Part shown: positions 1-13,269 of the stretch, one piece after another | Layout of the letters: the number at the start of each line of letters is the position of its first letter | Numbering within the stretch: the stretch's first letter is position 1 | Assembly (NCBI GenBank): GCA_900544395.1 | Contig: UQVC01000008.1 | Span: 423-64,422 of the forward strand | From: an uncultured Ruminococcus sp. | GTDB taxonomy: Bacteria > Bacillota > Clostridia > Lachnospirales > Lachnospiraceae | Direction: 5' to 3' | DNA: 64,000 bases | Translations under genes and position numbers: made by a program | Notes under the pieces: generated by a model | The model's database searches: none | The model's input: the letters and a program-made list of their open reading frames with translations, nothing else | Told to the model about the DNA's origin: nothing

Positions 1-2
1 AG

Positions 3-1220
3 AAAGGCGAGCGCGTCAACGGCGAAGCTCCTTACGGCTACCTTATCGACCCGGATAACCGCAATCATCTGATACCCGACCCGGAAACGGCGCACGTCGT
101 AAAACAGATTTTTGCAATGTATGTACGGGGCGACCGTATGTGTGAAATCCAGAACTGGCTGCGGGACAATGAAATACTGACCGTCGGGGAACTGCGCTAC
201 CGCAGGACAGGGAGCAAACGCCACCCCCGCCCACAGCTCAACGCATGGTACAACTGGCCGGATAAGACGCTGTACGACATTCTGACAAGGAAAGAATATT
301 TAGGGCATACCATAACCGGGAAAACCTACAAGGTATCTTATAAGTCGAAAAAGACGAAAAAGAACCCGGAGGAAAAAAGGTATTTCTTCCCCAACACTCA
401 CGAACCTTTGATTGATGAAGAAACCTTTGAACTTGCACAGAAGCGGATTGCCACCCGGCAACGCCCGACAAAGGTTGATGAAATTGACCTGTTTTCCGGG
501 CTGCTCTTTTGCGGGGACTGCGGCTACAAAATGTATGCAGTACGCGGAGCCGGGACGCTTGAACGGAAACACGCCTACACTTGCGGCAACTACCGCAACC
601 GGGCAAGAAATGATATGCTCTGCACTACGCATTATATCCGCAAAAGCGTATTGAAAGAACTTGTCCTTGCAGACTTGCAGCGAGTAACGTCTTATGTGAA
701 AGAGCATGAACAGGAGTTTATCGAAACAGCCAACGAGTGCAGCGCAAAGGCAGTACAAAAGACGCTGACACAGCAGCGGAAAGAGCTTGACAAGGCGCAG
801 AACCGTATTAACGAGCTGAACATCTTATTCCGCAAGCTCTACGAGGACAACGCTTTAGGGAAACTTTCAGATGAACAATTTGCTTTTCTGACTTCCGGCT
901 ATGATGAAGAAAAAAAGACGCTGACCCGGAGGATTGCGGAGCTGTCACAGGAAATCGACAACGCCACCGAGCGCAGCGCGGACGTAAAAAGGTTTGTCGC
1001 ACTGGTACGCAGATACACAGCGATTGAAGAACTGACCTACGAAAACGTCCATGAATTTATTGACCGTATTCTTATTCACGAACTGGATAAGGAAACGAAC
1101 ACCCGCAAAATCGAAATCTTTTATAGCTTTGTCGGCAGAGTTGATACAGGTGACAAGCCTACCGAAAGTATCTCCTATTTCAGACAGATAGGAGCCGACG
1201 TAAAGAGTTATGCTATCTAA
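3..1220 (+). CDS. Large serine recombinase, 5'-partial (gene starts left of the window)
   Basis: ORF in frame from nt 3. It carries serine-recombinase recombinase-domain, zinc-ribbon (CGDCGYKMY...CGNY) and coiled-coil regions typical of TndX/TnpX/CcrB-type enzymes. GC is about that of the chromosomal genes. Confidence 0.85.
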   Translation, partial: KGERVNGEAPYGYLIDPDNRNHLIPDPETAHVVKQIFAMYVRGDRMCEIQNWLRDNEILTVGELRYRRTGSKRHPRPQLNAWYNWPDKTLYDILTRKEYLGHTITGKTYKVSYKSKKTKKNPEEKRYFFPNTHEPLIDEETFELAQKRIATRQRPTKVDEIDLFSGLLFCGDCGYKMYAVRGAGTLERKHAYTCGNYRNRARNDMLCTTHYIRKSVLKELVLADLQRVTSYVKEHEQEFIETANECSAKAVQKTLTQQRKELDKAQNRINELNILFRKLYEDNALGKLSDEQFAFLTSGYDEEKKTLTRRIAELSQEIDNATERSADVKRFVALVRRYTAIEELTYENVHEFIDRILIHELDKETNTRKIEIFYSFVGRVDTGDKPTESISYFRQIGADVKSYAI

Positions 1221-1224
1221 CATA

Positions 1225-1466
<242 letters not shown>

Positions 1467-1571
1467 TTATCCTCCTTTATAACTAACCCGTGTTTACAAT
1501 ACCTGCTTGCAAGTAAAGTATAACATGGGTTATTTTTCACATTCAATCTATTTCTTACAACTGCACCGAAT

Positions 1572-1814
1572 TTATGCGATTGTCTGCTTTGCTTTCTCAA
1601 GCATAACATCAGTCAGAAGTTCTTCCATTGTCTTCCCCTTTTCGGGAAAATGCTCTTTTACAACAATCTTTGTCTTTCCTCTGTTTCCAATGCCACACTT
1701 GTTATTTTTCTTTTGAATTGTTTTTACAGTATTATCAATAACACATACCCCCTTTCTGTAAAAATCTTTTCTAAGCAATTCAACGGCTTTTGTCATAGCC
1801 CACAGGAGTTCCAC
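1572..1814 (-). CDS. Hypothetical small protein (80 aa)
   Basis: ORF only. No recognisable motif. AT-rich codon usage like the island. Confidence 0.25.
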   Translation of the reverse strand: MELLWAMTKAVELLRKDFYRKGVCVIDNTVKTIQKKNNKCGIGNRGKTKIVVKEHFPEKGKTMEELLTDVMLEKAKQTIA

Positions 1815-2059
1815 CTCTGCATAGTTCTTATGTAGCCGTACCCATTGCGTGCGACGCTCTTAACGCTCAAGCTGTGGCTGTACGGGAGTATCATTATCTG
1901 ACAGCACAGGTCATGGCGATAAAAGAGGACAAGTCTTTTACAAGAACACAAATAGAGTTCGCTCGCTTTTGCAGGGGAAAGGTCATGGCGTATTTGTTTC
2001 AACGGCTAGCTGTCTGTCAAACGTATTGAATTGCTTTATTCAGTTGTCAAAGAACCCGA

Positions 2060-2810
2060 AAGAAGAAAATCATCTTTCCTATATACCGCGTTGGAAAAGA
2101 GGGGAAATGTAACCAAAATTCAAAACTTTTTCCATTATTAGTACAAATGGAACGGTTCATTTTGGCAATCAACGGTTGATTTTCTCCTTTTTCACTACTA
2201 TCTGTACAGCAAACGTCCATTTGTTAAGTTGAAATGGAAAAATTTTAACTTCTTTTCTTGCACCATATAGGGATAGAAATTGTCATTTTGCTAAGTTAAT
2301 GACGAAAAAAGATTATTCTTCTTTTCACACCCTAACTACCCAAACCATACCGTTACTGCCAACAATAGAATGAAATATTTTCTTTGCACCATATAGGGAA
2401 CGGAAACCTTAAATTGTTAAGTTTAGAATAAAGTATTTTCCTCTTTTCACATCAACACTCAACTGCTAATGCCTGTTTGAATACAAATCAAGAAATGACA
2501 TAATAATTTCTTCTTTCTTGCACCAACACTCGACACGAGTAAGATATTTGAATACAAATTTAAGATAGTTTTTCCTCTTTTCATAGAACACTGTCCATTA
2601 ATCACGAATTTCCGTCATTTTTTCAAAACTTTTTTCTTCTTTCACATCATATAGGGACAGCAAGCCCTGATTTAATGACCTATTTTCAAAAAAAGTTTAG
2701 ATTTCCTTTTCTCGCACCATATCTGTACGCAAGTAGCTGTTTTGTTGCAGATTTGATAAAAAAGTTCATTTTTCTTTTCCGTTCCATATAGGGAATAAAA
2801 ATGACTCTTT
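2060..2810. repeat. Array of about 10-11 degenerate direct repeats (minus-strand consensus about TCCCTATATGGTGCAAGAAAAGAAG, with GTACAGATA / GAGTGTTG variants of the 5' half) at about 57-77-bp (mean ~65-bp) periodicity. No ORF of 60 aa or more in 2041-2840.
   Basis: Repeat cores on the plus strand sit near 2196, 2252, 2308, 2375, 2440, 2513, 2575, 2636, 2706 and 2783 (e.g. cttcttttcttgcaccatatagggatagaaa, attttctttgcaccatatagggaacggaaa, cctcttttcacatcaacactcaactgc). The array lies immediately 3' of the Rep_trans gene. Confidence 0.6.
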
Positions 2811-2840
2811 GCTGACTAAATCTGAAATTTTTCAATTACA

Positions 2841-4124
2841 TTAAAAAATACCGTCATTCTCTTGTGGAACAGCGGTATCTATTCGTTCTTCTATGGTCGA
2901 TTTTTCTAATTGTAATAAATGTTTATGCTTGCCTTTGAGTTCTGCCTGTTCAATCATATCTTTCAGTATCGTTGTATGATTTTCTCTGTCTAATGCTTGT
3001 ACCATTTTTATGGTTGGTGCAACCTGTCTTTGTAACCAATGCAATGCTTTTTGTAAAGTATAAGGTTCTGGCTTTGTAGTTAATCGTATCGGTTCTCTGT
3101 TTTCCCCTACAAACCACGCCCAATCATCATTTGTTTTCCATTGACTTTTTGGCTTGTCGTCCTCTCTGTCAACAAAGCGGACATAATGATTGATGATAGA
3201 AAAAGCGGTGCGTTCAGCGTCCCGATAGGTCAGTAAATCTACAACCGCATAATAGGCTCGTTCATTCTTCATGCGTATTTCAAAACGGTTTTTTATTTCC
3301 GTATCTTCAACTTCTATGCCATTTTTGACATACTGCTCATAATTCTTCTGATAAGCACACATATATAATTCACTGCTTGTTGAACCGAGATATAAGGTTT
3401 CTCCTGTATTCTTTGGTAAATCACTACCGCATTTTTCCGTACCGCTGTAATCTTTCTGCATACGAAAGTAGGAGATACATTCGCCAGCCTTATATTTTTC
3501 CTTTAATTTTGGAATATCTAATATTCCTGCTTTATCATTGATTGCCAAGTCAAGACGTTTCATCTTACCACTTGCCGTTAAACAATCAAGCATGAAGTCA
3601 TACCATGAGCGTTCTTGTGCCAATAAATAACTTTCCATTTGACGACAGCCTTTGCCTTTCAATTCCAATAAAACACCTAAATGTTCCTGCATGGAACACA
3701 TGATATTGATGTCGCCAAGTACATATTTGCTTTCATATCCGTATTTTCCATAATCTTCATAAAGCATATAATCGGCTTTCAGTTGTAATACATCACGGAT
3801 AATCGCCAATGCGTCCGTAGTAGGAAATCGGACACGAAAGTAATCAATCAATAAGAATAGTGGCTCTTGCGGATTGAAACGCTCAATCTGTTTTTCTATG
3901 ACTTCTCTTAATTCGTCATTTAATGGCTGTTTCCCTTTTTCAATGCGGTTGTAATATTCACGGCTGATACCACAGGCAACAGCAAGCCTTGTTTGTGTTA
4001 CTCCGTATTCCTCACGCTTTTGTCTTAATTCTTCAATAAAGTTTTTATCATTCATTTTTAAATTCCTCCAATCAAAAAAGGCAACTACCATATTTGATAA
4101 TTGCTTATACTTAAATTTCTGCAA
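2841..4124 (-). CDS. Rep_trans family replication initiator / MOBT-type relaxase with N-terminal XRE HTH domain
   Basis: N-terminal HTH (GVTQTRLAVACGISREYYNRIEKG). Rep_trans signatures RLDLAINDKAG and YLGSTSSELYMCAYQK (Y-x-G-S-x2-S-x6-Y-x-K), as in the pT181 RepC / Tn916 Orf20 / NicK family. Confidence 0.75.
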   Translation of the reverse strand: MQKFKYKQLSNMVVAFFDWRNLKMNDKNFIEELRQKREEYGVTQTRLAVACGISREYYNRIEKGKQPLNDELREVIEKQIERFNPQEPLFLLIDYFRVRFPTTDALAIIRDVLQLKADYMLYEDYGKYGYESKYVLGDINIMCSMQEHLGVLLELKGKGCRQMESYLLAQERSWYDFMLDCLTASGKMKRLDLAINDKAGILDIPKLKEKYKAGECISYFRMQKDYSGTEKCGSDLPKNTGETLYLGSTSSELYMCAYQKNYEQYVKNGIEVEDTEIKNRFEIRMKNERAYYAVVDLLTYRDAERTAFSIINHYVRFVDREDDKPKSQWKTNDDWAWFVGENREPIRLTTKPEPYTLQKALHWLQRQVAPTIKMVQALDRENHTTILKDMIEQAELKGKHKHLLQLEKSTIEERIDTAVPQENDGIF

Positions 4125-4289
4125 AAGAAAAAGACAATCAATTTCTCGTTTGAAATCAACTGTCTTTCCTATGTCTTATTCGATTTTCCCAAGTGATAAT
4201 GGCATAATTTATATCACACCATGTAAAATGCGGTTTCGCCTTGTAAATACAGCATTTTCCGCTTGTTAATGTATATTGTCTCTTGTTTT

Positions 4290-4400
4290 TTGTGCCCCCC
4301 TTGTTAGATAACGGGGGCTTTGAACGGCTCGCAAGCTCGCCGAACCGCCGAAGCGAACCGCCCCCTTGCAAGCATGGCGGAAAAATCTTAAGGATTTTCC
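4290..4400. other. GC-rich inverted/direct repeat cluster upstream of the Rep_trans gene (candidate oriT/nic or dso region)
   Basis: CCCCCC-N12-GGGGGC-N43-GCCCCC, with GCTCGC aa GCTCGCC and GAACC repeats. It is locally GC-rich inside an AT-rich block and lies 170-280 bp upstream of the rep start (4124). Confidence 0.3.
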
Positions 4401-4455
4401 CGCCAACGTGGTCGGATCGCTCCGTCGGTTTAACAGCTTTTCTGTTTCTCTCTAG

Positions 4456-4986
4456 TTATCTACGCATATAAATCAAATCGGTTATTCCGTTATAAGTCTG
4501 TGTTTTACAAAGCCTTAACTTTATTTCCCTGTCTATGTTGCCCAAAAGACGAACCCCATTTCCTAACAGAGTAGGAATAACAGAAATGTAATATTTATCA
4601 ATCATATTTTTGCTTACCAACTGCTGAACAAGATTTGCTCCGCCACAAATCCAAATATCCTTTCCTGCTTCTTGTTTTAGCCGTTCCAATAATAAAACAG
4701 GATTTTCACTTGTAAAATGAATTTGTTGGGAAGAATTGCACTCTTTATGTGTTAATACATAAGTTGTAAATTTATTATATACCCATTCTTGCGGAGAAAG
4801 TTCAGTAACAACCTGATGAGAAGTATTCCACCCCATTAAGACAGTATCTATATCTTTGGTAAATTCTGTATAAGTGTCGATGTTTTCATTGTCATTTCCA
4901 TGACCATTTAGCCAAGCTACTCCACCATTACCGTCCGCAATATATCCGTCAAGGCTCATGGCAATAAATAAAACTACTTTTCTCAT
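4456..4986 (-). CDS. Dihydrofolate reductase family protein (RibD C-terminal domain type)
   Basis: MRKVVLFIAMSLDGYIADGNGGVAWL...IWICGGANLVQQL is the typical RibD_C/DHFR-like pattern. Confidence 0.65.
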   Translation of the reverse strand: MRKVVLFIAMSLDGYIADGNGGVAWLNGHGNDNENIDTYTEFTKDIDTVLMGWNTSHQVVTELSPQEWVYNKFTTYVLTHKECNSSQQIHFTSENPVLLLERLKQEAGKDIWICGGANLVQQLVSKNMIDKYYISVIPTLLGNGVRLLGNIDREIKLRLCKTQTYNGITDLIYMRR

Positions 4987-5016
4987 TTTTTCTCTTTTAT
5001 AAATACAAACAGGAAT

Positions 5017-5112
5017 TTATTTCTCTTTTTTACTCATAAGGGAACAACTGATTGCTACAAATAAACCCATTAAAATCCATGGAAATGCTGCTCTTATAAA
5101 ATCACTAACCAT
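5017..5112 (-). CDS. Candidate small hydrophobic peptide (31 aa, MVSDFIRAAFPWILMGLFVAISCSLMSKKEK)
   Basis: Strong SD (AAGGAGG) 8 nt upstream of the ATG. Single predicted TM. Below the 60-aa ORF-track cutoff. Confidence 0.35.
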   Translation of the reverse strand: MVSDFIRAAFPWILMGLFVAISCSLMSKKEK

Positions 5113-5167
5113 ACTTTATTCCTCCTTAAATTCCAATTTCCTTAGTTCTACAAACTGAAATTTTTGC

Positions 5168-5824
5168 CTATGAATGTATCTTGTTCTTTATACGCAAACA
5201 GGCTTCTGTGTGCATAATCCAATGTCTTGAAAACGGCATTTGAATTAGTCCACAAATATCTTTATTACACCAATAATCAATCAGCCAAATTGCTTTTTCA
5301 TTGTCGTTTACTACATTCAACGATTCTAAGTATCCTTTTCTTTCTTTCGGTATTTTTCTTTTCAATTCATCATAAGATAACCGTTCAAGCATTTTCTCAG
5401 TGCTTTCCCATACTTCGAAAATATATAAATATAATTCTTCCAGATTAAGCTGTTTTGAAAAGTCTGCAATCTGCTGTTTCATGAGTTCATTTCCTGTTGT
5501 AATGATAGGTGAATTGATACGCTCTTGATAATTGCCTGCAAAAAATACTTGTTCATCTTCATTTATCACTGTATGCACAACTATATCTTCAATGCGGAAA
5601 ATATGCCAAATAGAATAAGCAATCGTCTTACTATGATAACCATCAGCGTTTATGAAGGGGATTGAGTTAAAATCTTCTCTGCATAATTCTTCTTTGAAAG
5701 ATACTAAGGTTTGTATTAACTGACTTCGTAAAGTAAGTAAAGTATCAATACCCCTCTTATAAGTATCTTTCTTTTTTATTTGTGCCTGCATTGTTTTATT
5801 AAGTTCAGACCATTCCTTATTCAT
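5168..5824 (-). CDS. DinB/YfiT-like metal-dependent hydrolase family protein (start uncertain; the ORF extends to 5974)
   Basis: His-containing motifs (SIWHIF...HTVINED...FSRHWIMHTE) consistent with the DinB_2 superfamily. Internal ATG at 5824 with a purine-rich upstream region. Confidence 0.5.
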   Translation of the reverse strand: MNKEWSELNKTMQAQIKKKDTYKRGIDTLLTLRSQLIQTLVSFKEELCREDFNSIPFINADGYHSKTIAYSIWHIFRIEDIVVHTVINEDEQVFFAGNYQERINSPIITTGNELMKQQIADFSKQLNLEELYLYIFEVWESTEKMLERLSYDELKRKIPKERKGYLESLNVVNDNEKAIWLIDYWCNKDICGLIQMPFSRHWIMHTEACLRIKNKIHS

Positions 5825-5961
5825 ATTCAATACTCTCTCAAATTCTGATTTTATCGCCCCATACAAATTATTTCGTAAACAATCGGCGTCAGGACAGAGG
5901 AAAAAGCAGACTACATTTAGAATGTATCTGCCCATTCCTCTGGACTGCACACCGATTTTTA

Positions 5962-6027
5962 CCAATTGAACCAAATCGCTGCGCCACAGCCTTGGCAGGC
6001 CATCGCGCAGCGATTTGGTTCAACTGG
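5962..6027. repeat. 23-bp inverted repeat (1 mismatch) with a 20-nt GC-rich loop: ccaattgaaccaaatcgctgcgc ... gcgcagcgatttggttcaactgg
   Basis: Read directly from the sequence. It sits between the dfr gene's 3' end and the DinB-like gene. No T-run follows. Confidence 0.6.
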
Positions 6028-6106
6028 AATTTGTCTTACAACAATTTATATATGCATAAAAAGCAATATATTTATGAAAACACCCTAAATCCAAAATTTA
6101 CTCAAT

Positions 6107-6580
6107 TCATTTTTTCCTTACATAAAATGTTCTCGTATATTTCACTTCCTCACCAAGTGTTTCCCCTATCAAAACTTCAAAATCATTGATATCAAATTCT
6201 GGAAAGAATGTATCTCCATCTTCAATATTTAAATCTACTTCTGTGATATACATTTTATCTACTATTTGCAAAGCTTCCTTAAATAGTCCATATCCACCAG
6301 ATATGTATACATCTCGTCCTTTAGCCAATAATAATGCATCTTCTAATGATTTAACTGAAACTAAATTATCTCCTTGATACTCTGTTGTGGTGGAAACAAC
6401 AATATTCATTCTATTAGGCAACGGATGACCGATTTCTTCATAAGACTTTCGCCCCATAATAACCACATTACCCGTTGTTAACTCTCTAAATTGCTTTTGT
6501 TCTCCCTTTATTTTCCATGGTATATTACCATTCTTGCCTATAACATTATTCTTTGACCTCGCAACAATCAAACCTATCAT
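6107..6580 (-). CDS. dfrF: Trimethoprim-resistant dihydrofolate reductase, DfrF-like (157 aa)
   Basis: Canonical DHFR (MIGLIVA...NVIGKNGNIPWKIKGE...VIMGRKSYEEIG..PLPNR.NIVVS). From memory the sequence looks identical or near-identical to enterococcal/streptococcal DfrF. RBS GGAGG. AT-rich context. Confidence 0.8.
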   Translation of the reverse strand: MIGLIVARSKNNVIGKNGNIPWKIKGEQKQFRELTTGNVVIMGRKSYEEIGHPLPNRMNIVVSTTTEYQGDNLVSVKSLEDALLLAKGRDVYISGGYGLFKEALQIVDKMYITEVDLNIEDGDTFFPEFDINDFEVLIGETLGEEVKYTRTFYVRKK

Positions 6581-6882
6581 CTATTTCATCCTCCATAATA
6601 TGATGTCGTACCTGTGATTCCATCAAGTGCACCACATCTTAACAAACTCAAAATTATCTCGAACTAACCAGCTCGACAAATTCCTTTTTTGTCTTCATCT
6701 GCATTATATCATATTGTTATAAGCATTGCCATTTCTTTTCTGCTTTTGAAAAGTTACTTATCAGCCTATGTTTTGTAAAGGGTGATATTCAGCATTTCTC
6801 ACGCAACAAGCCCTTGACAAACCATAGACTAATAAGTTTTAAGGTAATCAAGCAGAAATGAAATAGTCTGCTGTTTCACGGC

Positions 6883-6921
6883 AACAAAAAAGAGATACCA
6901 ACACACTTATGTAGTATCTCT
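6883..6921 (-). terminator. Rho-independent terminator for the minus-strand HTH gene
   Basis: AGAGATAC-N15-GTATCTCT stem. An A6 run sits on the plus-strand 5' side, giving a U-tract on the minus transcript. Confidence 0.55.
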
Positions 6922-6982
6922 TAGTCTAGTAGCAATATTCTTTTGTTTGCAAGCAGGTAAACATGGGCTGTTTCTTAATATC

Positions 6983-7138
6983 TTTTTGTTTGGGAAACAC
7001 CCCTCTCCCATTTTGAAACGGCTTTATCGGAAAGAAACAATCGTTCTGCCAGTTCTTTTTGTGTGTAGCCTTTTTCCTTTCGCAGCATTGCCACAAATGC
7101 TCCAAACTTTTGATTGTCGATTTCATACATGTTCCCCA
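6983..7138 (-). CDS. XRE-family HTH protein, 51 aa, probably a truncated regulator (MYEIDNQKFGAFVAMLRKEKGYTQKELAERLFLSDKAVSKWERGVSQTKRY)
   Basis: Canonical Cro/C1 HTH. The frame differs from the junk 95-aa ORF listed in the track. It ends right after the HTH. Confidence 0.55.
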
Positions 7139-7251
7139 TCTCCTTGTTGTTTTTATGATTTTAGTGTAAAAGATTTTCCTTCTTTTGACAATCGACTGCC
7201 GGTAGAATGGCATTTTTTTTGCTTATTATTCGCTTATTTTCCGAAAAATAC

Positions 7252-7280
7252 TGTACAGAATCTATGTGGTGTGCTATACT
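7252..7280 (+). promoter_or_regulatory. Sigma-A-type promoter: TGTACA-N17-TGcTATACT (extended -10)
   Basis: Located about 35 nt upstream of the riboswitch-like element and 130 nt upstream of the nucleoside hydrolase start codon. Confidence 0.45.
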
Positions 7281-7314
7281 CTACCTCGCATTTAGCAAAT
7301 CAGAGCACGGTTCT

Positions 7315-7353
7315 CTGGACTGGTTCGTGAACTTCCCAGTATAAAAAACCAAG
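7315..7353 (+). ncRNA. Putative preQ1-I riboswitch aptamer (CUGG...CCCAG hairpin + UAUAAAAAACCAAG tail)
   Basis: Architecture matches class I preQ1 aptamers: a short stem-loop followed by an A-rich tail able to pseudoknot with the loop, ending CAAG. It sits in the 5' leader of a queuosine-salvage-type operon. Confidence 0.5.
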
Positions 7354-7407
7354 TATCTCAGACATGCAGTTTAGACTGCAGAATCAAAAAGTAAAGGAGA
7401 TTGGAGA

Positions 7408-8427
7408 ATGAATGCAACAAAAGTCATCATTGACTGTGATCCTGGGATCGATGACGCTCTCGCCCTGATGCTGGCGCTGCGCTCACCGGAACTTGAGATT
7501 TTAGGGATTACAGTTGTCTCTGGGAACGTCCCGGCAAAACAAGGTGCAGAAAACGCAAAAAAAATCCTGCACTGGATGGATCGGATGGACATTCCCGTAT
7601 ATCTTGGAGAAGAACTGCCGCTTGTCATTCCTTATGTAGATGCAATGGACACCCATGGAACAGACGGTCTTGGCGAATCTCATTATCCAAAAATCACAGA
7701 TGGAATCATACACAAAAACGGCGTGGAATTTATTGCCCGCACGCTGCAAAAGGCTGCCCTGGAGAATGAAGCCGTCTCGGTCATCGCACTGGGACCTCTG
7801 ACCAACCTTGCCAGAGTCATACAGATGTATCCTGACAGTCTGAAAGGACTTGGGGAACTGATCAGTATGGGCGGAAGCTATCGAAGCCATGGAAACTGTT
7901 CTCCGGTAGCGGAATACAATTACTGGTGTGATCCTCACGCTGCCGAAATCATTTTTCGGGCATTTGAAGAACTGCCTGTTTTGCAGGACAAGCAAATTCA
8001 TATGGTGGGACTTGATGTGACCAGAAAAATCGTACTGACGCCAAATCTTCTCGAATACATGTGCGTTACAGATCCGACGATGGGAGAACGGATCCGGCGG
8101 ATTACCCGGTTCTATTTTGATTTTCACTGGAAACAGGAAGGAGTCATTGGCTGTGTGATCAACGATCCCCTTGCTGTGGCTTATTTTATCGACCGCTCTT
8201 TATGCAGCGGAATCAATGCCTGTACCAGGATCGCCACCGAAGGTCTTTGCATCGGGCAAAGTGTCGTAGATGGATTTGATATCTGGAACGGCAAAAAAAA
8301 TACTCATGTATTGACAGAAGTAGATGGAATGCGGTTTATGCAGATGTTTCTGGAGCGTCTCTTTCAAATTCCACCAAAGAAAAGTCTTCCGGTGCTGGAG
8401 CAGATCTTAAGTGGAGGTGTCCGATGA
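7408..8427 (+). CDS. IU-type nucleoside hydrolase, likely queuosine hydrolase (QueK-like)
   Basis: DCDPGIDDALAL N-terminal IU-NH signature. Operon with an ECF S component and a radical-SAM-like gene, as described for queuosine salvage in Clostridioides. Confidence 0.7.
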   Translation: MNATKVIIDCDPGIDDALALMLALRSPELEILGITVVSGNVPAKQGAENAKKILHWMDRMDIPVYLGEELPLVIPYVDAMDTHGTDGLGESHYPKITDGIIHKNGVEFIARTLQKAALENEAVSVIALGPLTNLARVIQMYPDSLKGLGELISMGGSYRSHGNCSPVAEYNYWCDPHAAEIIFRAFEELPVLQDKQIHMVGLDVTRKIVLTPNLLEYMCVTDPTMGERIRRITRFYFDFHWKQEGVIGCVINDPLAVAYFIDRSLCSGINACTRIATEGLCIGQSVVDGFDIWNGKKNTHVLTEVDGMRFMQMFLERLFQIPPKKSLPVLEQILSGGVR

Positions 8428-8987
8428 AACGACTCACAACAACCAAAGTATGTATATTGGCGCTCTGCGCAGTGATCAATCTGATCGGTGGACAGGCTGC
8501 TCTTCTGTTTCGGCTGCCCATTTATCTGGATTCCATCGGAACGGTATTTGCCGCAGCCATCCTGGGACCTGTTTATGGAATGCTCCCTGGAATCTTGAGC
8601 AATCTGATCAGCGGAATGACAATGGATATTTATTCCCTCTACTATCTCCCGGTTCAGATGATCACCGGATGGATGGCAGGATTTGTCTTTCAAAAATTCC
8701 CTCCGCACACAGGAAAAGACCTGGGAAAAATCCTGCTGGGAGCCGGAATGATCAGCCTTCCGGGAACGCTGGTCAGTTCTTGTATCACCGCAGTTGTTTT
8801 CGGCGGGATCACCTCTTCCGGATCTACGATTCTGGTGCAGCTTTTCCATCATCTTGGCATGGGACTGACTGCCAGCATCTGTATGGTGCAAGGGCTGACT
8901 GACTATGCAGACAGAGCCGTTGTCCTTGGATTGACAGCAACACTGCTTTCCATGCTGCCGGCAGGCTATCAACGTGTTTCAAGATAA
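8424..8987 (+). CDS. ECF transporter S component (queuosine/queuine precursor type, QueT/QrtT-like)
   Basis: About 6-TM hydrophobic protein of 187 aa. ATGA start/stop overlap with the upstream gene. Confidence 0.6.
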   Translation: MKRLTTTKVCILALCAVINLIGGQAALLFRLPIYLDSIGTVFAAAILGPVYGMLPGILSNLISGMTMDIYSLYYLPVQMITGWMAGFVFQKFPPHTGKDLGKILLGAGMISLPGTLVSSCITAVVFGGITSSGSTILVQLFHHLGMGLTASICMVQGLTDYADRAVVLGLTATLLSMLPAGYQRVSR

Positions 8988-8998
8988 GGAGAGAGCAA

Positions 8999-9688
8999 AT
9001 GGAACGATATAATCAGATCACCAATAAGAATCCGCGAGAGATCGTATTGTTAAAGGGCAGACCCTGTGCCTGGGGGAAATGCCGCTTCTGTGACTACATC
9101 GAAGACAATTCCAGGAATCTGGAAGAGATGAATGCTCTGAACCGGGAAGTTCTCTCTCATGTCACGGGAGAACTTGGTGTTTTGGAAGTCATCAATTCCG
9201 GAAGCTGCTTTGAACTTCCCAAAGAAACCCTGCGCATGATCAAAGAACTTATTCAAGAAAAAGGGATTCAGCGCCTTTTTTTCGAATCTCACTGGATGTA
9301 TCGAAACCATCTGCAGAAAATGCGGGACTACATGGGGATTCCCATTACCTTTAAAATCGGGGTAGAAACTTTTGATCGGGAATTTCGGGAAACTTATCTG
9401 AATAAACATGCAGATTTTCAGTCTCCGGAAGAAGTACGCAAGTATTTTGATTCCCCCTGTCTGATGGTGGGGATCAAAGGACAGACAAAAGAGATGATCG
9501 ATTATGATATGCAGATGTTAAAAACACATTTTGAACTGGGAACCGTCAATGTATTTACCAATAACAGTACCGATGTCACACGTGACCAGGAGCTTGTAGA
9601 CTGGTTTATGGAAAAATATGCGGCTCTTTTGGACGACCCCAGTGTGGAAGTCCTATATGAAAAAACAGATTTCGGTGTAGGGGATTAA
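8999..9688 (+). CDS. Radical-SAM-like protein with CX4CX2C motif; candidate queuine lyase (QueL-like)
   Basis: The N-terminal Cys cluster CAWGKCRFC is non-canonical spacing versus CX3CX2C. Third gene of the salvage-type operon. Confidence 0.45.
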   Translation: MERYNQITNKNPREIVLLKGRPCAWGKCRFCDYIEDNSRNLEEMNALNREVLSHVTGELGVLEVINSGSCFELPKETLRMIKELIQEKGIQRLFFESHWMYRNHLQKMRDYMGIPITFKIGVETFDREFRETYLNKHADFQSPEEVRKYFDSPCLMVGIKGQTKEMIDYDMQMLKTHFELGTVNVFTNNSTDVTRDQELVDWFMEKYAALLDDPSVEVLYEKTDFGVGD

Positions 9689-9712
9689 ATTTCCCGACCA
9701 CCGAAATCTGTT

Positions 9713-10558
9713 TTATTTTGCATTCCACTGACCGATCACTTCATTGACTGTGGAAACGGTCACAAACACATTCTTGTTTGTCGTATGCAGATAATGAAGG
9801 AGCAATCGATACTCCTGCTGTGCCAGGATCGTTACCAGCTCTGTCCGATGCTTTTCATCATAAGCTCCCTGCGCGGTATACAAGGTTGCCCCTCTCTTTA
9901 AGTCATGGATGATGTAATGCTGGATCTCCTTGTAATCATCCGATATGATACAGACTCGTTTGCGCTTCTTAAAACCATCAATAAAATAGTCCACTGCCAC
10001 CCCATTGGCATAGGTTCCCAAAAGACTGACGATCAATGTGGGAACATCATAAACAAGGATGGAAGTCATGGCTGTCACAAATCCTGAAAACATCACTGCT
10101 TTTCCAAGTTCTACATGCGTAAACTTATTTAAGATCTTGGCAACAATATCCAGTCCGCCGGAAGAGGCATTGACATGAAACAACATCGCCTGTCCAAGTG
10201 CAACCACCAATGTGTAAGCAACCAGATCAAACACCTGATTTCCGGTTACCGATTCTGTCACCGGGATCAGATGCTCGAACATCCAGAGAAAGACCGAGAG
10301 CAGAACCGATGTATACACTGTTTTTGCTCCAAAATCTTTTCCGATCAAGAGAAAGCCGATCACCAAAAGGATGGCGTTCAACAGAAACGTCAGTGCAGAA
10401 ATAGAAATCCCTGAAAGCTGAGAAATAACCAGCGCAAGACCTGCTACACTTCCCATCACGATCTTGCTTGGAACCATAAAGAAATAGACTGCCGCAGAGA
10501 CAAGCAGCATGGCAAAGGTAATGACTGCAAATTCCCGGATCGTATTTTTTGATTTCAT
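9713..10558 (-). CDS. YitT family membrane protein (DUF161/DUF2179)
   Basis: N-terminal polytopic membrane region plus C-terminal DUF2179-like domain. Typical YitT architecture. Confidence 0.65.
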   Translation of the reverse strand: MKSKNTIREFAVITFAMLLVSAAVYFFMVPSKIVMGSVAGLALVISQLSGISISALTFLLNAILLVIGFLLIGKDFGAKTVYTSVLLSVFLWMFEHLIPVTESVTGNQVFDLVAYTLVVALGQAMLFHVNASSGGLDIVAKILNKFTHVELGKAVMFSGFVTAMTSILVYDVPTLIVSLLGTYANGVAVDYFIDGFKKRKRVCIISDDYKEIQHYIIHDLKRGATLYTAQGAYDEKHRTELVTILAQQEYRLLLHYLHTTNKNVFVTVSTVNEVIGQWNAK

Positions 10559-11985: not shown

Positions 11986-13269
11986 TTACCGATCTGCCAG
12001 TTCTTTGACAATATCTTCCCAGGTCACACCGCGTTCTACCATCAGAACCATGGCGTGGTACAGAAAATCGGAAATTTCATATTTAATTTCTTCGGGATTC
12101 GGATTTTTGGCTGCGATTACGATTTCCGTTGCCTCTTCTCCGACCTTTTTTAAAATCTTATCAATCCCCTTGTCAAACAGATAATTGGTATAAGAGCCTT
12201 CTTTTGGATTCTGCTTCCGATCTGCAATGGTATCATACACAGATTCAAATACCTGAAGCGGATTCTTGGAATCGTATTCACTGCCTACGATCTGTCGGTA
12301 AAAACAACTGCGGTTTCCCGTATGGCAGGCAGCTCCCACCTGCTCCACTTTTGCCAGCAGGGTGTCATTATCACAATCTACAGACAGCGTCTTTACATAT
12401 TGGTAATGTCCGGATGTCTCTCCTTTCACCCAGCGGCACTGACGGCTGCGGCTGTAATATGTCATTTTTCCGGAACGGATCGTGTGTTCAAATGCTTCCT
12501 GGTTCATATATGCCATCATCAATACTTCATTGGTCTTATAATCCTGCACAACGACCGGAAGAAGCCCGTCTGCGTTCAGCGTAAACTCAGAAAATTTCAT
12601 GGCGCTTTCCAAGGAAGTCATCTGAATCCCTTCCGTGGTACAAAGTGTTTTAAATCCAGAAAGATCCAGTTCTGGTCTGCTGATAAATTTCCCGGACACC
12701 CCTTTGACGCCTTTGCATTTTAAGATTTTCAGGATTTCTTCCTGTTCCATCGTATCTGTCAGGACTACACAGGGGATTTCTGTAATGTTCATCACAGACA
12801 GAAGATCCAAGCGGTGCATAAACAAAATTTCGGAGCTGAATTTATCGATCAGATGCTGCTGTTTGAACAGGGCGTCAAAATCATTCAGCGATACCGCGAT
12901 CCTCTCTTTTCCAAACCGCTTGGATACTTCTTCGATCAGCTCAAAGGAAACTGCCTTGGAAAAATTCAAAATGGCCCGTTTCGCTCCGGCATACAAAATT
13001 TTCTTGACATCTTCCTGCCTGCGGATATTTCCCCCTGCGATCATAGGAATACTGATCACCCGATTGATCTTCTTCATAATATCGATGGCTTCGTCATGTT
13101 CTTCGTCTGCATGCGAGAGATCAAATACGATCAGTTCGTCTGCGCCTTTGTCACAATATGTTTTTGCAAGTTCTACGACATCTTCTGCAATGACTTCTTG
13201 ATCGTCAAACCATCGGACTGCCTTTCCTTTGTAAATGAAAATACAGGGAATCAATCTTTTATAACTCAT
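11986..13269 (-). CDS. hisIE: HisF-like (beta/alpha)8 domain fused to bifunctional HisIE (PRA-CH / PRA-PH)
   Basis: The C-terminal ~200 aa match HisI ([18 protein letters not shown]...CHTG) and HisE. The N-terminal ~220 aa align to HisF ([14 protein letters not shown]..., VELAK...GADEL..., [10 protein letters not shown]), but the canonical Asp of the CLDV motif is replaced (CIFIY). Confidence 0.7.

What the first reader, a model, noticed from the sequence alone, without database searches (positions are those of the whole stretch)
7252..9688. Putative preQ1-I riboswitch controlling a three-gene queuosine salvage operon (nucleoside hydrolase, ECF S component, CX4CX2C radical-SAM-like protein)
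A promoter (TGTACA-N17-TGcTATACT) is followed by a short hairpin CUGG...CCCAG plus a UAUAAAAAACCAAG tail, which has the architecture of class I preQ1 aptamers.

It precedes an IU-nucleoside hydrolase (DCDPGIDD), an ECF-type S component and a ~230-aa Cys-cluster protein.

This gene trio matches the queuosine hydrolase / transporter / queuine lyase salvage route described in Clostridioides difficile. The Cys spacing CAWGKCRFC (CX4CX2C) is atypical for radical SAM enzymes and worth confirming.
Basis: partly seen in the sequence, partly recalled or inferred. Interest (0 to 1): 0.55.

Follow-up and report, generated by a model that had tools for sequence, protein, structure and literature searches.

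The report
preQ1 riboswitch-controlled queuosine salvage operon
A gut Clostridia bacterium carries the already described three-gene pathway for recycling the tRNA nutrient queuosine behind a preQ1-sensing RNA switch, so the finding is correct but ordinary, apart from an unusually elaborate and conserved RNA leader.

Summary
The observation and the interpretation both hold. Rfam places a class I preQ1 aptamer at 7314-7358 (48.9 bits, threshold 39). It is followed by three genes:
- An IU-type nucleoside hydrolase (7408-8427).
- An ECF S component (8424-8987).
- A 229-aa protein (8999-9688) that aligns without gaps, at 53% identity, to the crystallised queuine lyase QueL (PDB 6P78).

The "atypical" CX4CX2C motif is invariant in the QueL family, including 6P78.

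Among 80 genomes with a QueL relative, all have the S component directly upstream. 73 also have the hydrolase, and 73 have the aptamer.

The same arrangement, preQ1-I riboswitch followed by queK-qrtT-queL, is published for Clostridioides difficile. This is therefore a new member of a known system.

Two additions:
- The aptamer carries the six nucleotides that define the two-ligand "type I" subgroup.
- In this lineage the aptamer sits in a conserved leader of about 130 nt. The mRNA 5' end pairs with the start codon, which is supported by covariation. A variable hairpin precedes the aptamer, and an invariant helix pairs the aptamer tail and AUCUC with the Shine-Dalgarno region.

Repression by preQ1 at translation initiation is inferred, not shown.

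The parts
7252..7280 (+). Promoter: -35 TGTACA (7252-7257), 17-nt spacer, extended -10 TGcTATACT (7272-7280)
   Evidence: Consensus scan, 9 of 12 matches plus TG. Both hexamers are invariant in L001 and L002 while the flanks diverge. An extended -10 box lies 6-9 nt upstream of the conserved GCAUUUA in most related loci.
7288..7294 (+). H1, 5' strand (GCAUUUA): the probable 5' end of the mRNA, which pairs with the start-codon region
   Evidence: Present in the minimum-free-energy fold. Across 36 distinct leaders the 8 core pairs are 89-100% paired. Column pair 4-35 occurs as C-G, U-A and A-U, and pair 5-34 as A-U and U-A. Slid controls give 30-49% paired against 87.5% for the 10 pairs counted. 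RNAalifold recovers the helix.
7301..7317 (+). P0 hairpin directly 5' of the aptamer (CAGAG 7301-7305 with CUCUG 7313-7317)
   Evidence: RNAalifold on 22 leaders shows 5 of 6 pairs with changes on both sides in 7-12 sequences each. The sequence is variable and the pairing is kept.
7319..7353 (+). preQ1-I aptamer, type I subgroup. P1 is 7319-7323 with 7336-7340. The A-rich L3 tail and CCAAG occupy 7341-7353.
   Evidence: Rfam RF00522, 48.9 bits against 39 (the hit spans 7314-7358). P1 has two compensatory changes, in L055 and L068. U6, U7, U16, C17, A30 and C31 are invariant in 24 distinct aptamers. These are the ligand-contacting nucleotides listed in PMC8752633.
7355..7359 (+). Anti-Shine-Dalgarno AUCUC, the 5' strand of helix P3. 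It pairs with GAGAU 7397-7401. CCA 7349-7351 can extend the helix by pairing with UGG 7402-7404.
   Evidence: Present in the minimum-free-energy folds and in the RNAalifold consensus. It is invariant in 22 of 22 window-type leaders, so there is no covariation evidence for or against it.
7365..7380 (+). P4 hairpin (UGCAGU, loop UUAG, ACUGCA) inside the loop closed by P3
   Evidence: Predicted in the folds. Related leaders carry a hairpin of unrelated sequence at the same place, and some have none. No U-tract follows it, so it is not an intrinsic terminator.
7393..7404 (+). Ribosome-binding region AAAGGAGAUUGG. The Shine-Dalgarno sequence AAAGGAG is at 7393-7399, 8 nt before the AUG. The 3' strand of P3 is 7397-7401 (or 7397-7404 with the extension).
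   Evidence: Read from the sequence. AAAGGAGATTGGAGAATG is conserved in all window-type leaders.
7408..8427 (+). queK-like queuosine/nucleoside hydrolase, 339 aa. Its first codons (7409-7415) form the 3' strand of H1.
   Evidence: PF01156, E 6e-88 over the full profile. It falls below every RihA/RihB/RihC/UriH equivalog cutoff. It lies next to the QrtT and QueL homologues in 73 of 80 loci.
8424..8987 (+). qrtT-like ECF transporter S component, 187 aa
   Evidence: NCBIfam ECF_S_CD3073, E 1.6e-21, full length, below the equivalog cutoff. PF12822 scores 27.8 bits, under its 30.7-bit threshold. The protein is hydrophobic along its whole length. It lies directly upstream of QueL in 80 of 80 loci. 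It overlaps the queK stop codon by 4 nt.
8999..9688 (+). queL queuine lyase (radical-SAM type, CX4CX2C at C23/C28/C31), 229 aa
   Evidence: PDB 6P78 'Queuine lyase', E 2e-76, residues 1-229 against 23-251. Identity is 53% with no gaps. C23, C28, C31 and C154 are invariant in 14 diverse homologues.
9662..9719 (.). Intrinsic terminator closing the operon. It is probably bidirectional and shared with the convergent yitT-family gene at 9713-10558 (-).
   Evidence: dG -31 kcal/mol, z -7.6, and 0 of 200 shuffles fold as well. U-runs follow the hairpin on both strands.

Best explanation
The region 7252-9719 is one transcription unit. It encodes the indirect queuine salvage route known from Clostridioides difficile.

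**Pathway (function transferred by homology and context):**
- The ECF S component (QrtT type) imports queuosine, queuine or preQ1.
- The nucleoside hydrolase (QueK type) cleaves queuosine to queuine.
- The radical-SAM queuine lyase QueL converts queuine to preQ1. The cell's ordinary tRNA-guanine transglycosylase can then insert preQ1 into tRNA.

**Control:**
- A class I preQ1 riboswitch in the leader governs the operon.
- Its aptamer has the sequence hallmarks of the type I subgroup, which binds two stacked preQ1 molecules.
- There is no terminator in the leader, so control is most likely at translation initiation.
- The Shine-Dalgarno sequence is partly paired with an AUCUC element that starts two nucleotides after the aptamer.
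- The start codon is paired with the 5' end of the mRNA.
- When preQ1 fills the aptamer, the pseudoknot is expected to lock this compact fold next to the ribosome-binding site and repress queK. The overlapping reading frames would carry the repression to the downstream genes.

**Shown:** the aptamer match, the homologies, the synteny, and the covariation in P1, P0 and H1.

**Inferred:** the substrates of QueK and QrtT, ligand binding, the two-ligand stoichiometry, the direction of the switch (OFF), and how the ligand changes ribosome access.
For: **Aptamer**
- The aptamer scores above Rfam's gathering threshold.
- The same aptamer is found upstream of the orthologous operon in 73 of 80 loci by pattern. 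Rfam confirms it in 9 of 11 loci tested.
- P1 carries two compensatory changes.
- The type I ligand contacts U6, U7, U16, C17, A30 and C31 are all present and invariant (PMC8752633, PMC11625349).

**Proteins**
- QueL has full-length homology to PDB 6P78 and an invariant Cys triad.
- The QueK-like gene has the IU-nucleoside hydrolase fold.
- The S component is homologous to the CD3073 family.
- Gene order is conserved in 73 of 80 loci for all three genes, and in 80 of 80 for qrtT-queL.

**Literature**
- C. difficile has a preQ1-I riboswitch upstream of queK-qrtT-queL, with the functions given above (PMC11477304, PMC11130926, bioRxiv 10.1101/2023.12.05.570228).

**Leader architecture**
- H1 shows covariation. 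P0 shows covariation. P3 is in the minimum-free-energy and consensus folds.
- The terminator scan finds only one hairpin with a T-run near the operon start, at 7197-7212, which lies upstream of the promoter.

**OFF logic**
- In relatives whose leaders end in a terminator, the aptamer tail (CUAAGGA) is complementary to the 5' arm of the terminator (UCCUUAG). This is the classical arrangement in which ligand binding causes termination.
Against: - The window's QueK-like and QrtT-like proteins were not compared directly with C. difficile CD1682 and CD1683, because those sequences could not be obtained.
- The S component is below the curated cutoffs of both PF12822 and the CD3073 equivalog model.
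- The ceiling nucleotide U32 of crystallised type I aptamers is C32 here.
- Helix P3 is sequence-invariant, so it has no covariation support.
- Equilibrium folding does not reproduce an OFF switch. With the aptamer nucleotides blocked, the Shine-Dalgarno sequence is predicted to be slightly more open: 0.39 free against 0.55 blocked, and 0.43 against 0.56 with the full leader.
- The same calculation also fails for the terminator-type relatives, where the logic is clear from the sequence. It therefore carries little weight either way.
- H1 is predicted to be formed with probability near 1 in both states. Its role in switching, rather than in constitutive attenuation or 5'-end protection, is open.
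- No tgt, queA or ECF energising module lies in the window.
Confidence: 0.82

Rival explanations
1. The riboswitch works with inverted logic, as an ON switch, or it senses the substrate (queuine or queuosine) rather than preQ1. Without ligand, the aptamer tail CCA pairs with UGG next to the Shine-Dalgarno sequence and helps close the ribosome-binding site. Ligand binding withdraws the tail and opens the site.
For: - The CCA:UGG extension of P3 uses C31-A33, which are pocket and ceiling nucleotides in the bound aptamer. The two pairings are therefore mutually exclusive (PMC8752633).
- Blocking the aptamer nucleotides raises the predicted Shine-Dalgarno accessibility.
- C32 replaces the usual U32 in exactly the subgroup of leaders that has the downstream UUGG.
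Against: - Every characterised preQ1 riboswitch represses on ligand binding (review PMC11625349).
- Orthologous operons in relatives have near-identical aptamers joined to terminators in the OFF arrangement.
- All six preQ1-contacting nucleotides are conserved.
- The folding test has no discriminating power, because it also fails on the terminator-type leaders.
- Induction of a preQ1-producing pathway by preQ1 makes little physiological sense.
Confidence: 0.06
2. Control is transcriptional rather than translational. Ligand binding would cause premature termination or Rho-dependent termination within the leader, as in Bacillus subtilis queC and in the terminator-type relatives.
For: - Many related loci do use an intrinsic terminator behind the same aptamer.
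- The window leader has a hairpin (7365-7380) after the aptamer.
Against: - That hairpin is followed by an A-rich stretch, not a U-rich one.
- The scan lists no terminator between the promoter and queK.
- The conserved elements of this leader class all involve the Shine-Dalgarno and start-codon regions.
- Rho-dependent effects secondary to translational repression cannot be excluded.
Confidence: 0.08
3. The hydrolase and transporter are general nucleoside-salvage proteins (RihA/RihC-like) that merely sit beside queL, so the operon is not dedicated to queuosine.
For: - The best named NCBIfam and PDB matches of the hydrolase are RihC and RihA.
- Public records name the three proteins only generically.
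Against: - The Rih scores are far below the equivalog cutoffs (207 against 382, and 192 against 433).
- The three genes overlap or abut, and they stay together behind a preQ1 aptamer in 73 of 80 genomes.
- In C. difficile, the hydrolase in the same operon position (QueK) was shown to hydrolyse queuosine (as reported in PMC11477304 and PMC11130926).
Confidence: 0.05

Closest known systems
Clostridioides difficile CD1682-CD1684 (queK-qrtT-queL) operon with its preQ1-I riboswitch (Yuan et al. 2019 PNAS, as summarised in PMC11477304 and PMC11130926)
   Same: The gene content and order are the same: hydrolase, ECF S component, radical-SAM lyase. A class I preQ1 aptamer sits upstream. The inferred role is the same: queuosine to queuine to preQ1.
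   Different: - The host is different: a Lachnospiraceae-like gut bacterium. Identical proteins occur in MAGs labelled Eubacteriales and Mediterraneibacter gnavus.
- No direct sequence comparison with the C. difficile proteins or leader could be made here.
Queuine lyase QueL, PDB 6P78 (the sequence is identical to the Thomasclavelia spiroformis protein)
   Same: 229 residues align end to end at 53% identity. The CX4CX2C cluster motif and C154 are conserved.
   Different: In T. spiroformis, queL follows a QueT-family (PF06177) S component with no hydrolase. Its aptamer has AC before the 3' strand of P1 (type II) and is followed by a terminator.
Class I type I preQ1 riboswitch of Carnobacterium antarcticum (two stacked ligands; PMC8752633, PMC10018353)
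   Same: - U6, U7, U16, C17, A30 and C31 are present.
- UU follows the 5' strand of P1, and UC precedes the 3' strand.
- Control is translational, without burying the whole Shine-Dalgarno sequence in the pseudoknot.
   Different: - The tail is CCA rather than CUA, so C32 replaces U32 of the ceiling triple.
- The Shine-Dalgarno sequence lies 43 nt downstream. It is brought back to the aptamer by helix P3.
- The leader has the additional helices H1 and P0.
RaSEA, the archaeosine-biosynthesis radical SAM protein (TIGR01210)
   Same: It is the only NCBIfam model the third protein hits (E 2e-13 over residues 15-142). It also acts on a 7-deazaguanine derivative.
   Different: The score of 50 bits is far below the 212-bit cutoff, and only the N-terminal half aligns. 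The window protein is a relative, not a member.

Membership tests
preQ1-I riboswitch (Rfam RF00522) | Covariance-model score at or above the curated gathering score | tested here: met
   48.9 bits against 39, E 6.8e-7, full model 1-45.
preQ1-I riboswitch (Rfam RF00522) | A 5-bp P1 stem kept by compensatory change, followed by an A-rich tail | tested here: met
   In 24 distinct aptamers, pair 4-19 occurs as G-C, A-U and U-A, and 90.8% of P1 cells are paired. AUAAAAAAC is invariant apart from one A23U variant.
preQ1-I riboswitch (Rfam RF00522) | Binds preQ1 and represses the downstream gene | not testable with these tools
   This needs in-line probing or ITC and a reporter assay.
preQ1-I type I subgroup (two stacked ligands) | Ligand-contacting nucleotides U6, U7, U16, C17, A30, C31 (PMC8752633) | tested here: met
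   All six are present in the window and invariant in alignment A2.
preQ1-I type I subgroup (two stacked ligands) | CUA in the 3' tail, with U32 forming the C8-A12-U32 ceiling triple | tested here: not met
   The window has C31-C32-A33. 13 of 24 distinct aptamers share C32 and 11 have U32. C8 and A12 are invariant.
Queuine lyase QueL | Full-length sequence homology to a deposited QueL | tested here: met
   PDB 6P78, E 2e-76, query 1-229 against chain 23-251. Identity 53% with 0 gaps.
Queuine lyase QueL | Conserved Cys triad for the radical-SAM [4Fe-4S] cluster | tested here: met
   C23, C28 and C31 (CX4CX2C) are invariant in 14 homologues of 52-85% identity, including 6P78. The PF04055 match is weak: 27.2 bits, under its 29.5-bit threshold.
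Queuine lyase QueL | Converts queuine to preQ1 | not testable with these tools
   This needs an enzyme assay.
Queuosine hydrolase QueK | IU-nucleoside hydrolase fold with the N-terminal DxDxxxDD motif | tested here: met
   PF01156, E 6e-88 over profile positions 1-297, with DCDPGIDD.
Queuosine hydrolase QueK | Orthology to C. difficile CD1682 (YP_001088185.1) | not tested
   The sequence was not obtainable. The genome-collection scan returned only the 80 closest of 252 loci, none of them C. difficile, and the original paper is not held.
Queuosine hydrolase QueK | Clustering with queL, a Q-precursor transporter gene and a preQ1 riboswitch | tested here: met
   73 of 80 loci.
QrtT (ECF S component for queuosine precursors) | Membership of the ECF S-component family (PF12822, as used for QrtT in PMC11130926) | tested here: inconclusive
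   - PF12822 scores 27.8 bits, below its 30.7-bit gathering score.
- NCBIfam ECF_S_CD3073 gives E 1.6e-21 over the full length, but 76.8 bits is below the 180-bit cutoff.
- There is no similarity to QueT of T. spiroformis.
QrtT (ECF S component for queuosine precursors) | A partner ECF energising module (EcfA, EcfA', EcfT) | tested here: not met
   No such genes are among the ORFs scanned in the 64-kb window. Shared ECF modules are usually encoded elsewhere, so this is not evidence against membership.

The most novel reading that the evidence does not exclude
In this lineage the regulatory unit may not be the 35-nt aptamer alone. It may be a conserved four-helix leader of about 130 nt with these parts:
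- H1: the 5' end of the mRNA paired with the start codon.
- P0: a hairpin abutting the aptamer.
- The type I aptamer, with C32 in place of U32.
- P3: the aptamer tail plus AUCUC paired with the Shine-Dalgarno region.

That would be an expression platform not among those catalogued for the preQ1 family. Its response to ligand, possibly including its direction, cannot be deduced from known examples.
Probability: 0.35. Interest if true: 0.45.

Novelty: new member of a known kind. Interest (0 to 1): 0.2.

Why it matters
The locus adds no new biology at the pathway level. It does allow three proteins, currently named only "nucleoside hydrolase", "ECF transporter S component" and "radical SAM protein" in public records, to be annotated as a queuosine salvage set in a common gut lineage. 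This agrees with published surveys reporting that most large-intestine species lack queDECF and instead carry the QueK/QueL salvage genes.

The modest added value lies in the leader. About 50 related genomes share a covariation-supported helix between the mRNA 5' end and the start codon, wrapped around a two-ligand-type preQ1 aptamer. This is a compact natural system for asking how a small pseudoknot controls a ribosome-binding site that lies 40 nt away in sequence.

Tried and rejected
**1. Original papers.** Yuan et al. 2019 and McCown et al. 2014 are not held. The pathway facts are therefore taken from later papers that cite them.

**2. C. difficile sequences.**
- The single genome-collection scan returned only the 80 closest of 252 loci.
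- A protein search with the 6P78 sequence showed that the crystallised protein is from T. spiroformis.
- Direct comparison of QueK and QrtT with CD1682 and CD1683 was therefore not possible.

**3. Equilibrium folding with the aptamer free or blocked.**
- It suggested that the Shine-Dalgarno sequence is slightly more open when the aptamer is blocked.
- I rejected this as evidence for an ON switch. The same procedure predicts the terminator formed in both states in terminator-type relatives, whose OFF logic is evident from the sequence.

**4. P2 registers.**
- The crystallographic register (10-12 with 32-34) and a shifted one (8-10 with 32-34) each give 22% paired cells.
- A register of 14-16 with 33-35 gives 100% pairing with one covarying pair. 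It conflicts with U16 and C17 being ligand contacts, and it probably reflects a single evolutionary event. It is left unexplained.

**5. Alternative helices.**
- One alternative pairs the aptamer 5' half (UGGUU) with the tail (AACCA). It is about as populated as P1 in predicted nascent transcripts (0.44 against 0.38) but leaves the anti-SD free. It does not explain the switching.
- Pairing of the 5' leader with the A-rich L3 tail fits some loci and not others and was not pursued.

**6. Promoter.** As a bare pattern it is not above chance. It was kept only because it is conserved.
Full report
**1. What is there**

- **Aptamer.** A gathering-threshold scan of the whole window against Rfam gives two hits. 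One is the PreQ1 class I aptamer (RF00522) at 7314-7358 on the + strand. It scores 48.9 bits against a threshold of 39, with E 6.8e-7, and the full model is matched. P1 is ACUGG (7319-7323) paired with CCAGU (7336-7340). The loop is UUCGUGAACUUC and the tail is AUAAAAAACCAAG, ending at 7353.
- **Promoter.** As a pattern it is not above chance (7 sites against 4.3 +/- 2.2 in shuffles). However, both hexamers and the TG are invariant in the two closest related loci while the surrounding sequence diverges.
- **Genes.** Three ORFs follow on the same strand.
  - 7408-8427 (339 aa) matches the IU nucleoside hydrolase family over the whole profile, E 6e-88.
  - 8424-8987 (187 aa) is a hydrophobic ECF S-component-like protein.
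  - 8999-9688 (229 aa) has a weak radical-SAM match.
- **Linkage.** The first two genes overlap by ATGA. The third starts 11 nt after the second, behind a GGAG.
- **Terminator.** A hairpin of -31 kcal/mol (z -7.6) with U-runs on both strands closes the unit at 9662-9719.

**2. The third gene is queL**

- A sequence search of the Protein Data Bank returns one significant match, 6P78, deposited as "Queuine lyase". E is 2e-76, with residues 1-229 aligned to 23-251.
- BLASTP gives 53% identity and no gaps.
- The deposited sequence is identical to the Thomasclavelia spiroformis protein.
- In an alignment of 14 homologues at 52-85% identity, C23, C28, C31 and C154 are invariant.
- CX4CX2C is therefore a hallmark of this family, not an anomaly of this gene.
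- The only NCBIfam model hit is the archaeosine radical-SAM protein RaSEA, far below its cutoff. That indicates a distant relationship only.

**3. Context across genomes**

- A scan of one genome per species found 252 loci encoding relatives, and the 80 closest were fetched. They are mostly Lachnospiraceae and other Clostridia.
- In all 80 loci, a homologue of the window's S component lies directly upstream of queL. In 73 the hydrolase homologue precedes it. Several of the seven exceptions start the operon at the transporter gene.
- A pattern for the aptamer is found upstream of the first gene in 73 loci. Most of the rest are cut by a contig end.
- Rfam confirmed the aptamer in 9 of 11 loci tested. 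These include T. spiroformis, where queL follows a QueT-family S component without a hydrolase.

**4. What is already known**

- C. difficile has a preQ1-I riboswitch upstream of the three-gene operon CD1682-84, named queK, qrtT and queL.
  - QrtT takes up preQ1, queuine and queuosine.
  - QueK hydrolyses queuosine to queuine.
  - QueL makes preQ1 from queuine (PMC11477304; PMC11130926; bioRxiv 10.1101/2023.12.05.570228, all citing Yuan et al. 2019).
- PMC11130926 also reports that most large-intestine species lack queDECF and carry the QueK/QueL salvage genes with transporters.
- The window is therefore a further instance of a described system.
- Its three proteins exist verbatim in public records, with generic names only: MDO4439816-18, from MAGs labelled Eubacteriales and Mediterraneibacter gnavus.

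**5. Limits of the protein assignments**

- I could not obtain the C. difficile QueK and QrtT sequences, so orthology was not tested directly.
- For the hydrolase, the evidence is the fold, scores far below the RihA/RihB/RihC/UriH equivalog cutoffs, and the conserved context.
- For the S component:
  - PF12822 is just under its threshold (27.8 against 30.7 bits).
  - The best curated model is the "CD3073 family" S component, E 1.6e-21 over the full length and below the equivalog cutoff.
  - PMC11130926 states that C. difficile has two QrtT proteins with different substrate ranges.
  - The protein is unrelated in sequence to QueT of T. spiroformis.
- No ECF energising module, tgt or queA lies in the window.

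**6. The aptamer subtype**

- According to PMC11625349 and PMC8752633, class I type I aptamers have UU after the 5' strand of P1, UC before the 3' strand, and a C interrupting the A-rich tail.
- Nucleotides U6, U7, U16, C17, A30 and C31 contact two stacked preQ1 molecules.
- With A1 at 7319, the window has all six. They are invariant in the 24 distinct aptamers collected.
- One difference: U32 of the C8-A12-U32 ceiling triple is C32 in the window. C32 is found in 13 of the 24 distinct aptamers and U32 in the other 11.
- P1 is supported by two compensatory changes.
- Two-ligand binding is an inference from these sequence features.

**7. The leader is more than the aptamer**

Relatives fall into two groups.

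*Terminator-type leaders.*
- One group has a long leader ending in a hairpin with a U-run.
- There the aptamer tail (for example CUAAGGA) is complementary to the 5' arm of the terminator (UCCUUAG). This is the classical OFF design.

*Window-type leaders.* The window belongs to the other group, which has no terminator and shares a fixed set of elements.

- **(a) H1.**
  - Six to nine nucleotides after the -10 box lies GCAUUUA (7288-7294). It is complementary to UGAAUGC (7409-7415), the last two bases of the start codon plus the next five bases.
  - A sister group has UAUUCAU with AUGAAUA. Single loci have UUUCAU with AUGAAA, and AAAUUCAU with AUGAAUUU.
  - On 36 distinct leaders the eight core pairs are 89-100% paired. 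One pair occurs as C-G, U-A and A-U, and another as A-U and U-A.
  - Slid registers give 30-49% pairing against 87.5% for the ten pairs counted.
  - The helix is predicted with probability near 1.
- **(b) P0.** A hairpin abuts the aptamer (7301-7305 with 7313-7317). It has unrelated sequences in different loci, and 7-12 double changes per pair among 22 leaders.
- **(c) P3.**
  - AUCUC (7355-7359), two nucleotides after the aptamer, pairs with GAGAU (7397-7401). This covers the last three bases of the Shine-Dalgarno sequence AAAGGAG.
  - The helix can be extended by CCA (7349-7351) with UGG (7402-7404).
  - P3 is invariant, so covariation can neither support nor refute it.
- **(d) P4.** An optional hairpin of variable sequence lies inside the P3 loop (7365-7380 here).

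**8. How it most likely works**

- Control at translation initiation is the best reading. The leader has no terminator, and every conserved element touches the ribosome-binding site.
- Repression by preQ1 is inferred from three things:
  - the behaviour of all characterised preQ1 riboswitches (PMC11625349);
  - the OFF design of the terminator-type leaders in front of orthologous operons;
  - the physiology of a pathway whose product is preQ1.
- I could not derive how ligand binding changes ribosome access.
  - The only pairing that is mutually exclusive with the bound aptamer is CCA:UGG.
  - Equilibrium folding with the aptamer blocked predicts a slightly more open Shine-Dalgarno sequence.
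  - The same calculation fails to show switching in the terminator-type leaders, so it is uninformative.
- A compact pseudoknot can repress translation from up to 10 nt away without pairing to the Shine-Dalgarno sequence (PMC10018353). P3 may serve to keep the ribosome-binding site next to the aptamer despite a 40-nt insertion.
- Relatives such as L020, with the Shine-Dalgarno sequence 3 nt after the aptamer and no P3, fit this view.

**9. Verdict**

- The system is known, and this is a new member in a gut Clostridia lineage.
- The leader architecture is a minor extension. I did not find it among the mechanisms listed in the 2024 review of the preQ1 riboswitch family (PMC11625349). My literature check was limited to the held library.

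Noticed in passing
window 1-7011: The operon sits directly beside a horizontally acquired element.
- Window 1283-7011 is 96.6% identical to part of an Enterococcus faecium plasmid (NZ_CP065930.1), without that plasmid's two IS1251 copies.
- The stretch 6022-6693 is 99% identical to dfrF regions of other Enterococcus plasmids.
- The element carries:
  - a serine recombinase (117-1220);
  - a Rep_trans rolling-circle initiator (2841-4124, -);
  - a RibD_C-type reductase (4456-4986, -);
  - the trimethoprim-resistance gene dfrF (6107-6580, -), at 360 bits against a cutoff of 320.

   Followed up: partly
window 6975-7139 (-): A 54-aa XRE-type helix-turn-helix ORF ends about where the similarity to the Enterococcus element stops (about 7011). 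It looks like a regulator gene truncated by the insertion. Similarity to related chromosomes resumes only at 7245-7270, just upstream of the promoter.
   Followed up: partly
window 1800-1897 (-): An Rfam pemK RNA motif (RF02913, 55.1 bits against 34.8) with an insertion of about 35 nt in its first hairpin. It lies inside the mobile element.
   Followed up: no
aptamer positions 15 and 34 (window 7333 and 7352), and loci L058-L080: Position 15 and position 34 covary strictly across the 24 distinct aptamers: U with A in 17, C with G in 7. This would extend a helix of 14-16 with 33-35 that is 100% paired. That register conflicts with the crystallographic P2 and with U16 and C17 as ligand contacts. 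It may also reflect a single evolutionary event.
   Followed up: partly
L068:4332-4436: In this locus three changes occur together:
- P1 changes from G4-C19 to A4-U19.
- The downstream AUUGGAG becomes AUUAGAG.
- The tail stays CCAAG.
This breaks the proposed CCA:UGG pairing. It would preserve a pairing of the downstream UUAG with the 3' strand of P1. It is a single case and remains unexplained.
   Followed up: no
L031, L041, L059, L037 (leaders upstream of qrtT): Operons that lack queK keep the same leader and the sequence GGAGAAUGAAU (GGAGAAUGAAA in L037). They begin qrtT at a second AUG, 6 nt downstream in L031, L041 and L059 and 9 nt downstream in L037. H1 is maintained by matching changes in the 5' leader. 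The AUGAAU/AUGAAA stretch is therefore conserved as RNA rather than as coding sequence.
   Followed up: partly
L081:4400-5690 (Thomasclavelia spiroformis): The organism whose QueL was crystallised (identical to PDB 6P78) has a two-gene unit, queT (PF06177) then queL, with no hydrolase. It sits behind a preQ1-I aptamer with AC before the 3' strand of P1 (type II) and a clear terminator.
   Followed up: partly
window 11986-13269 (-): A 427-aa ORF in the histidine operon combines roughly the N-terminal half of a HisA/HisF-type barrel (PF00977 positions 1-129 of 228) with PRA-CH and PRA-PH (HisIE) domains. This is an unusual fusion and was not examined further.
   Followed up: no
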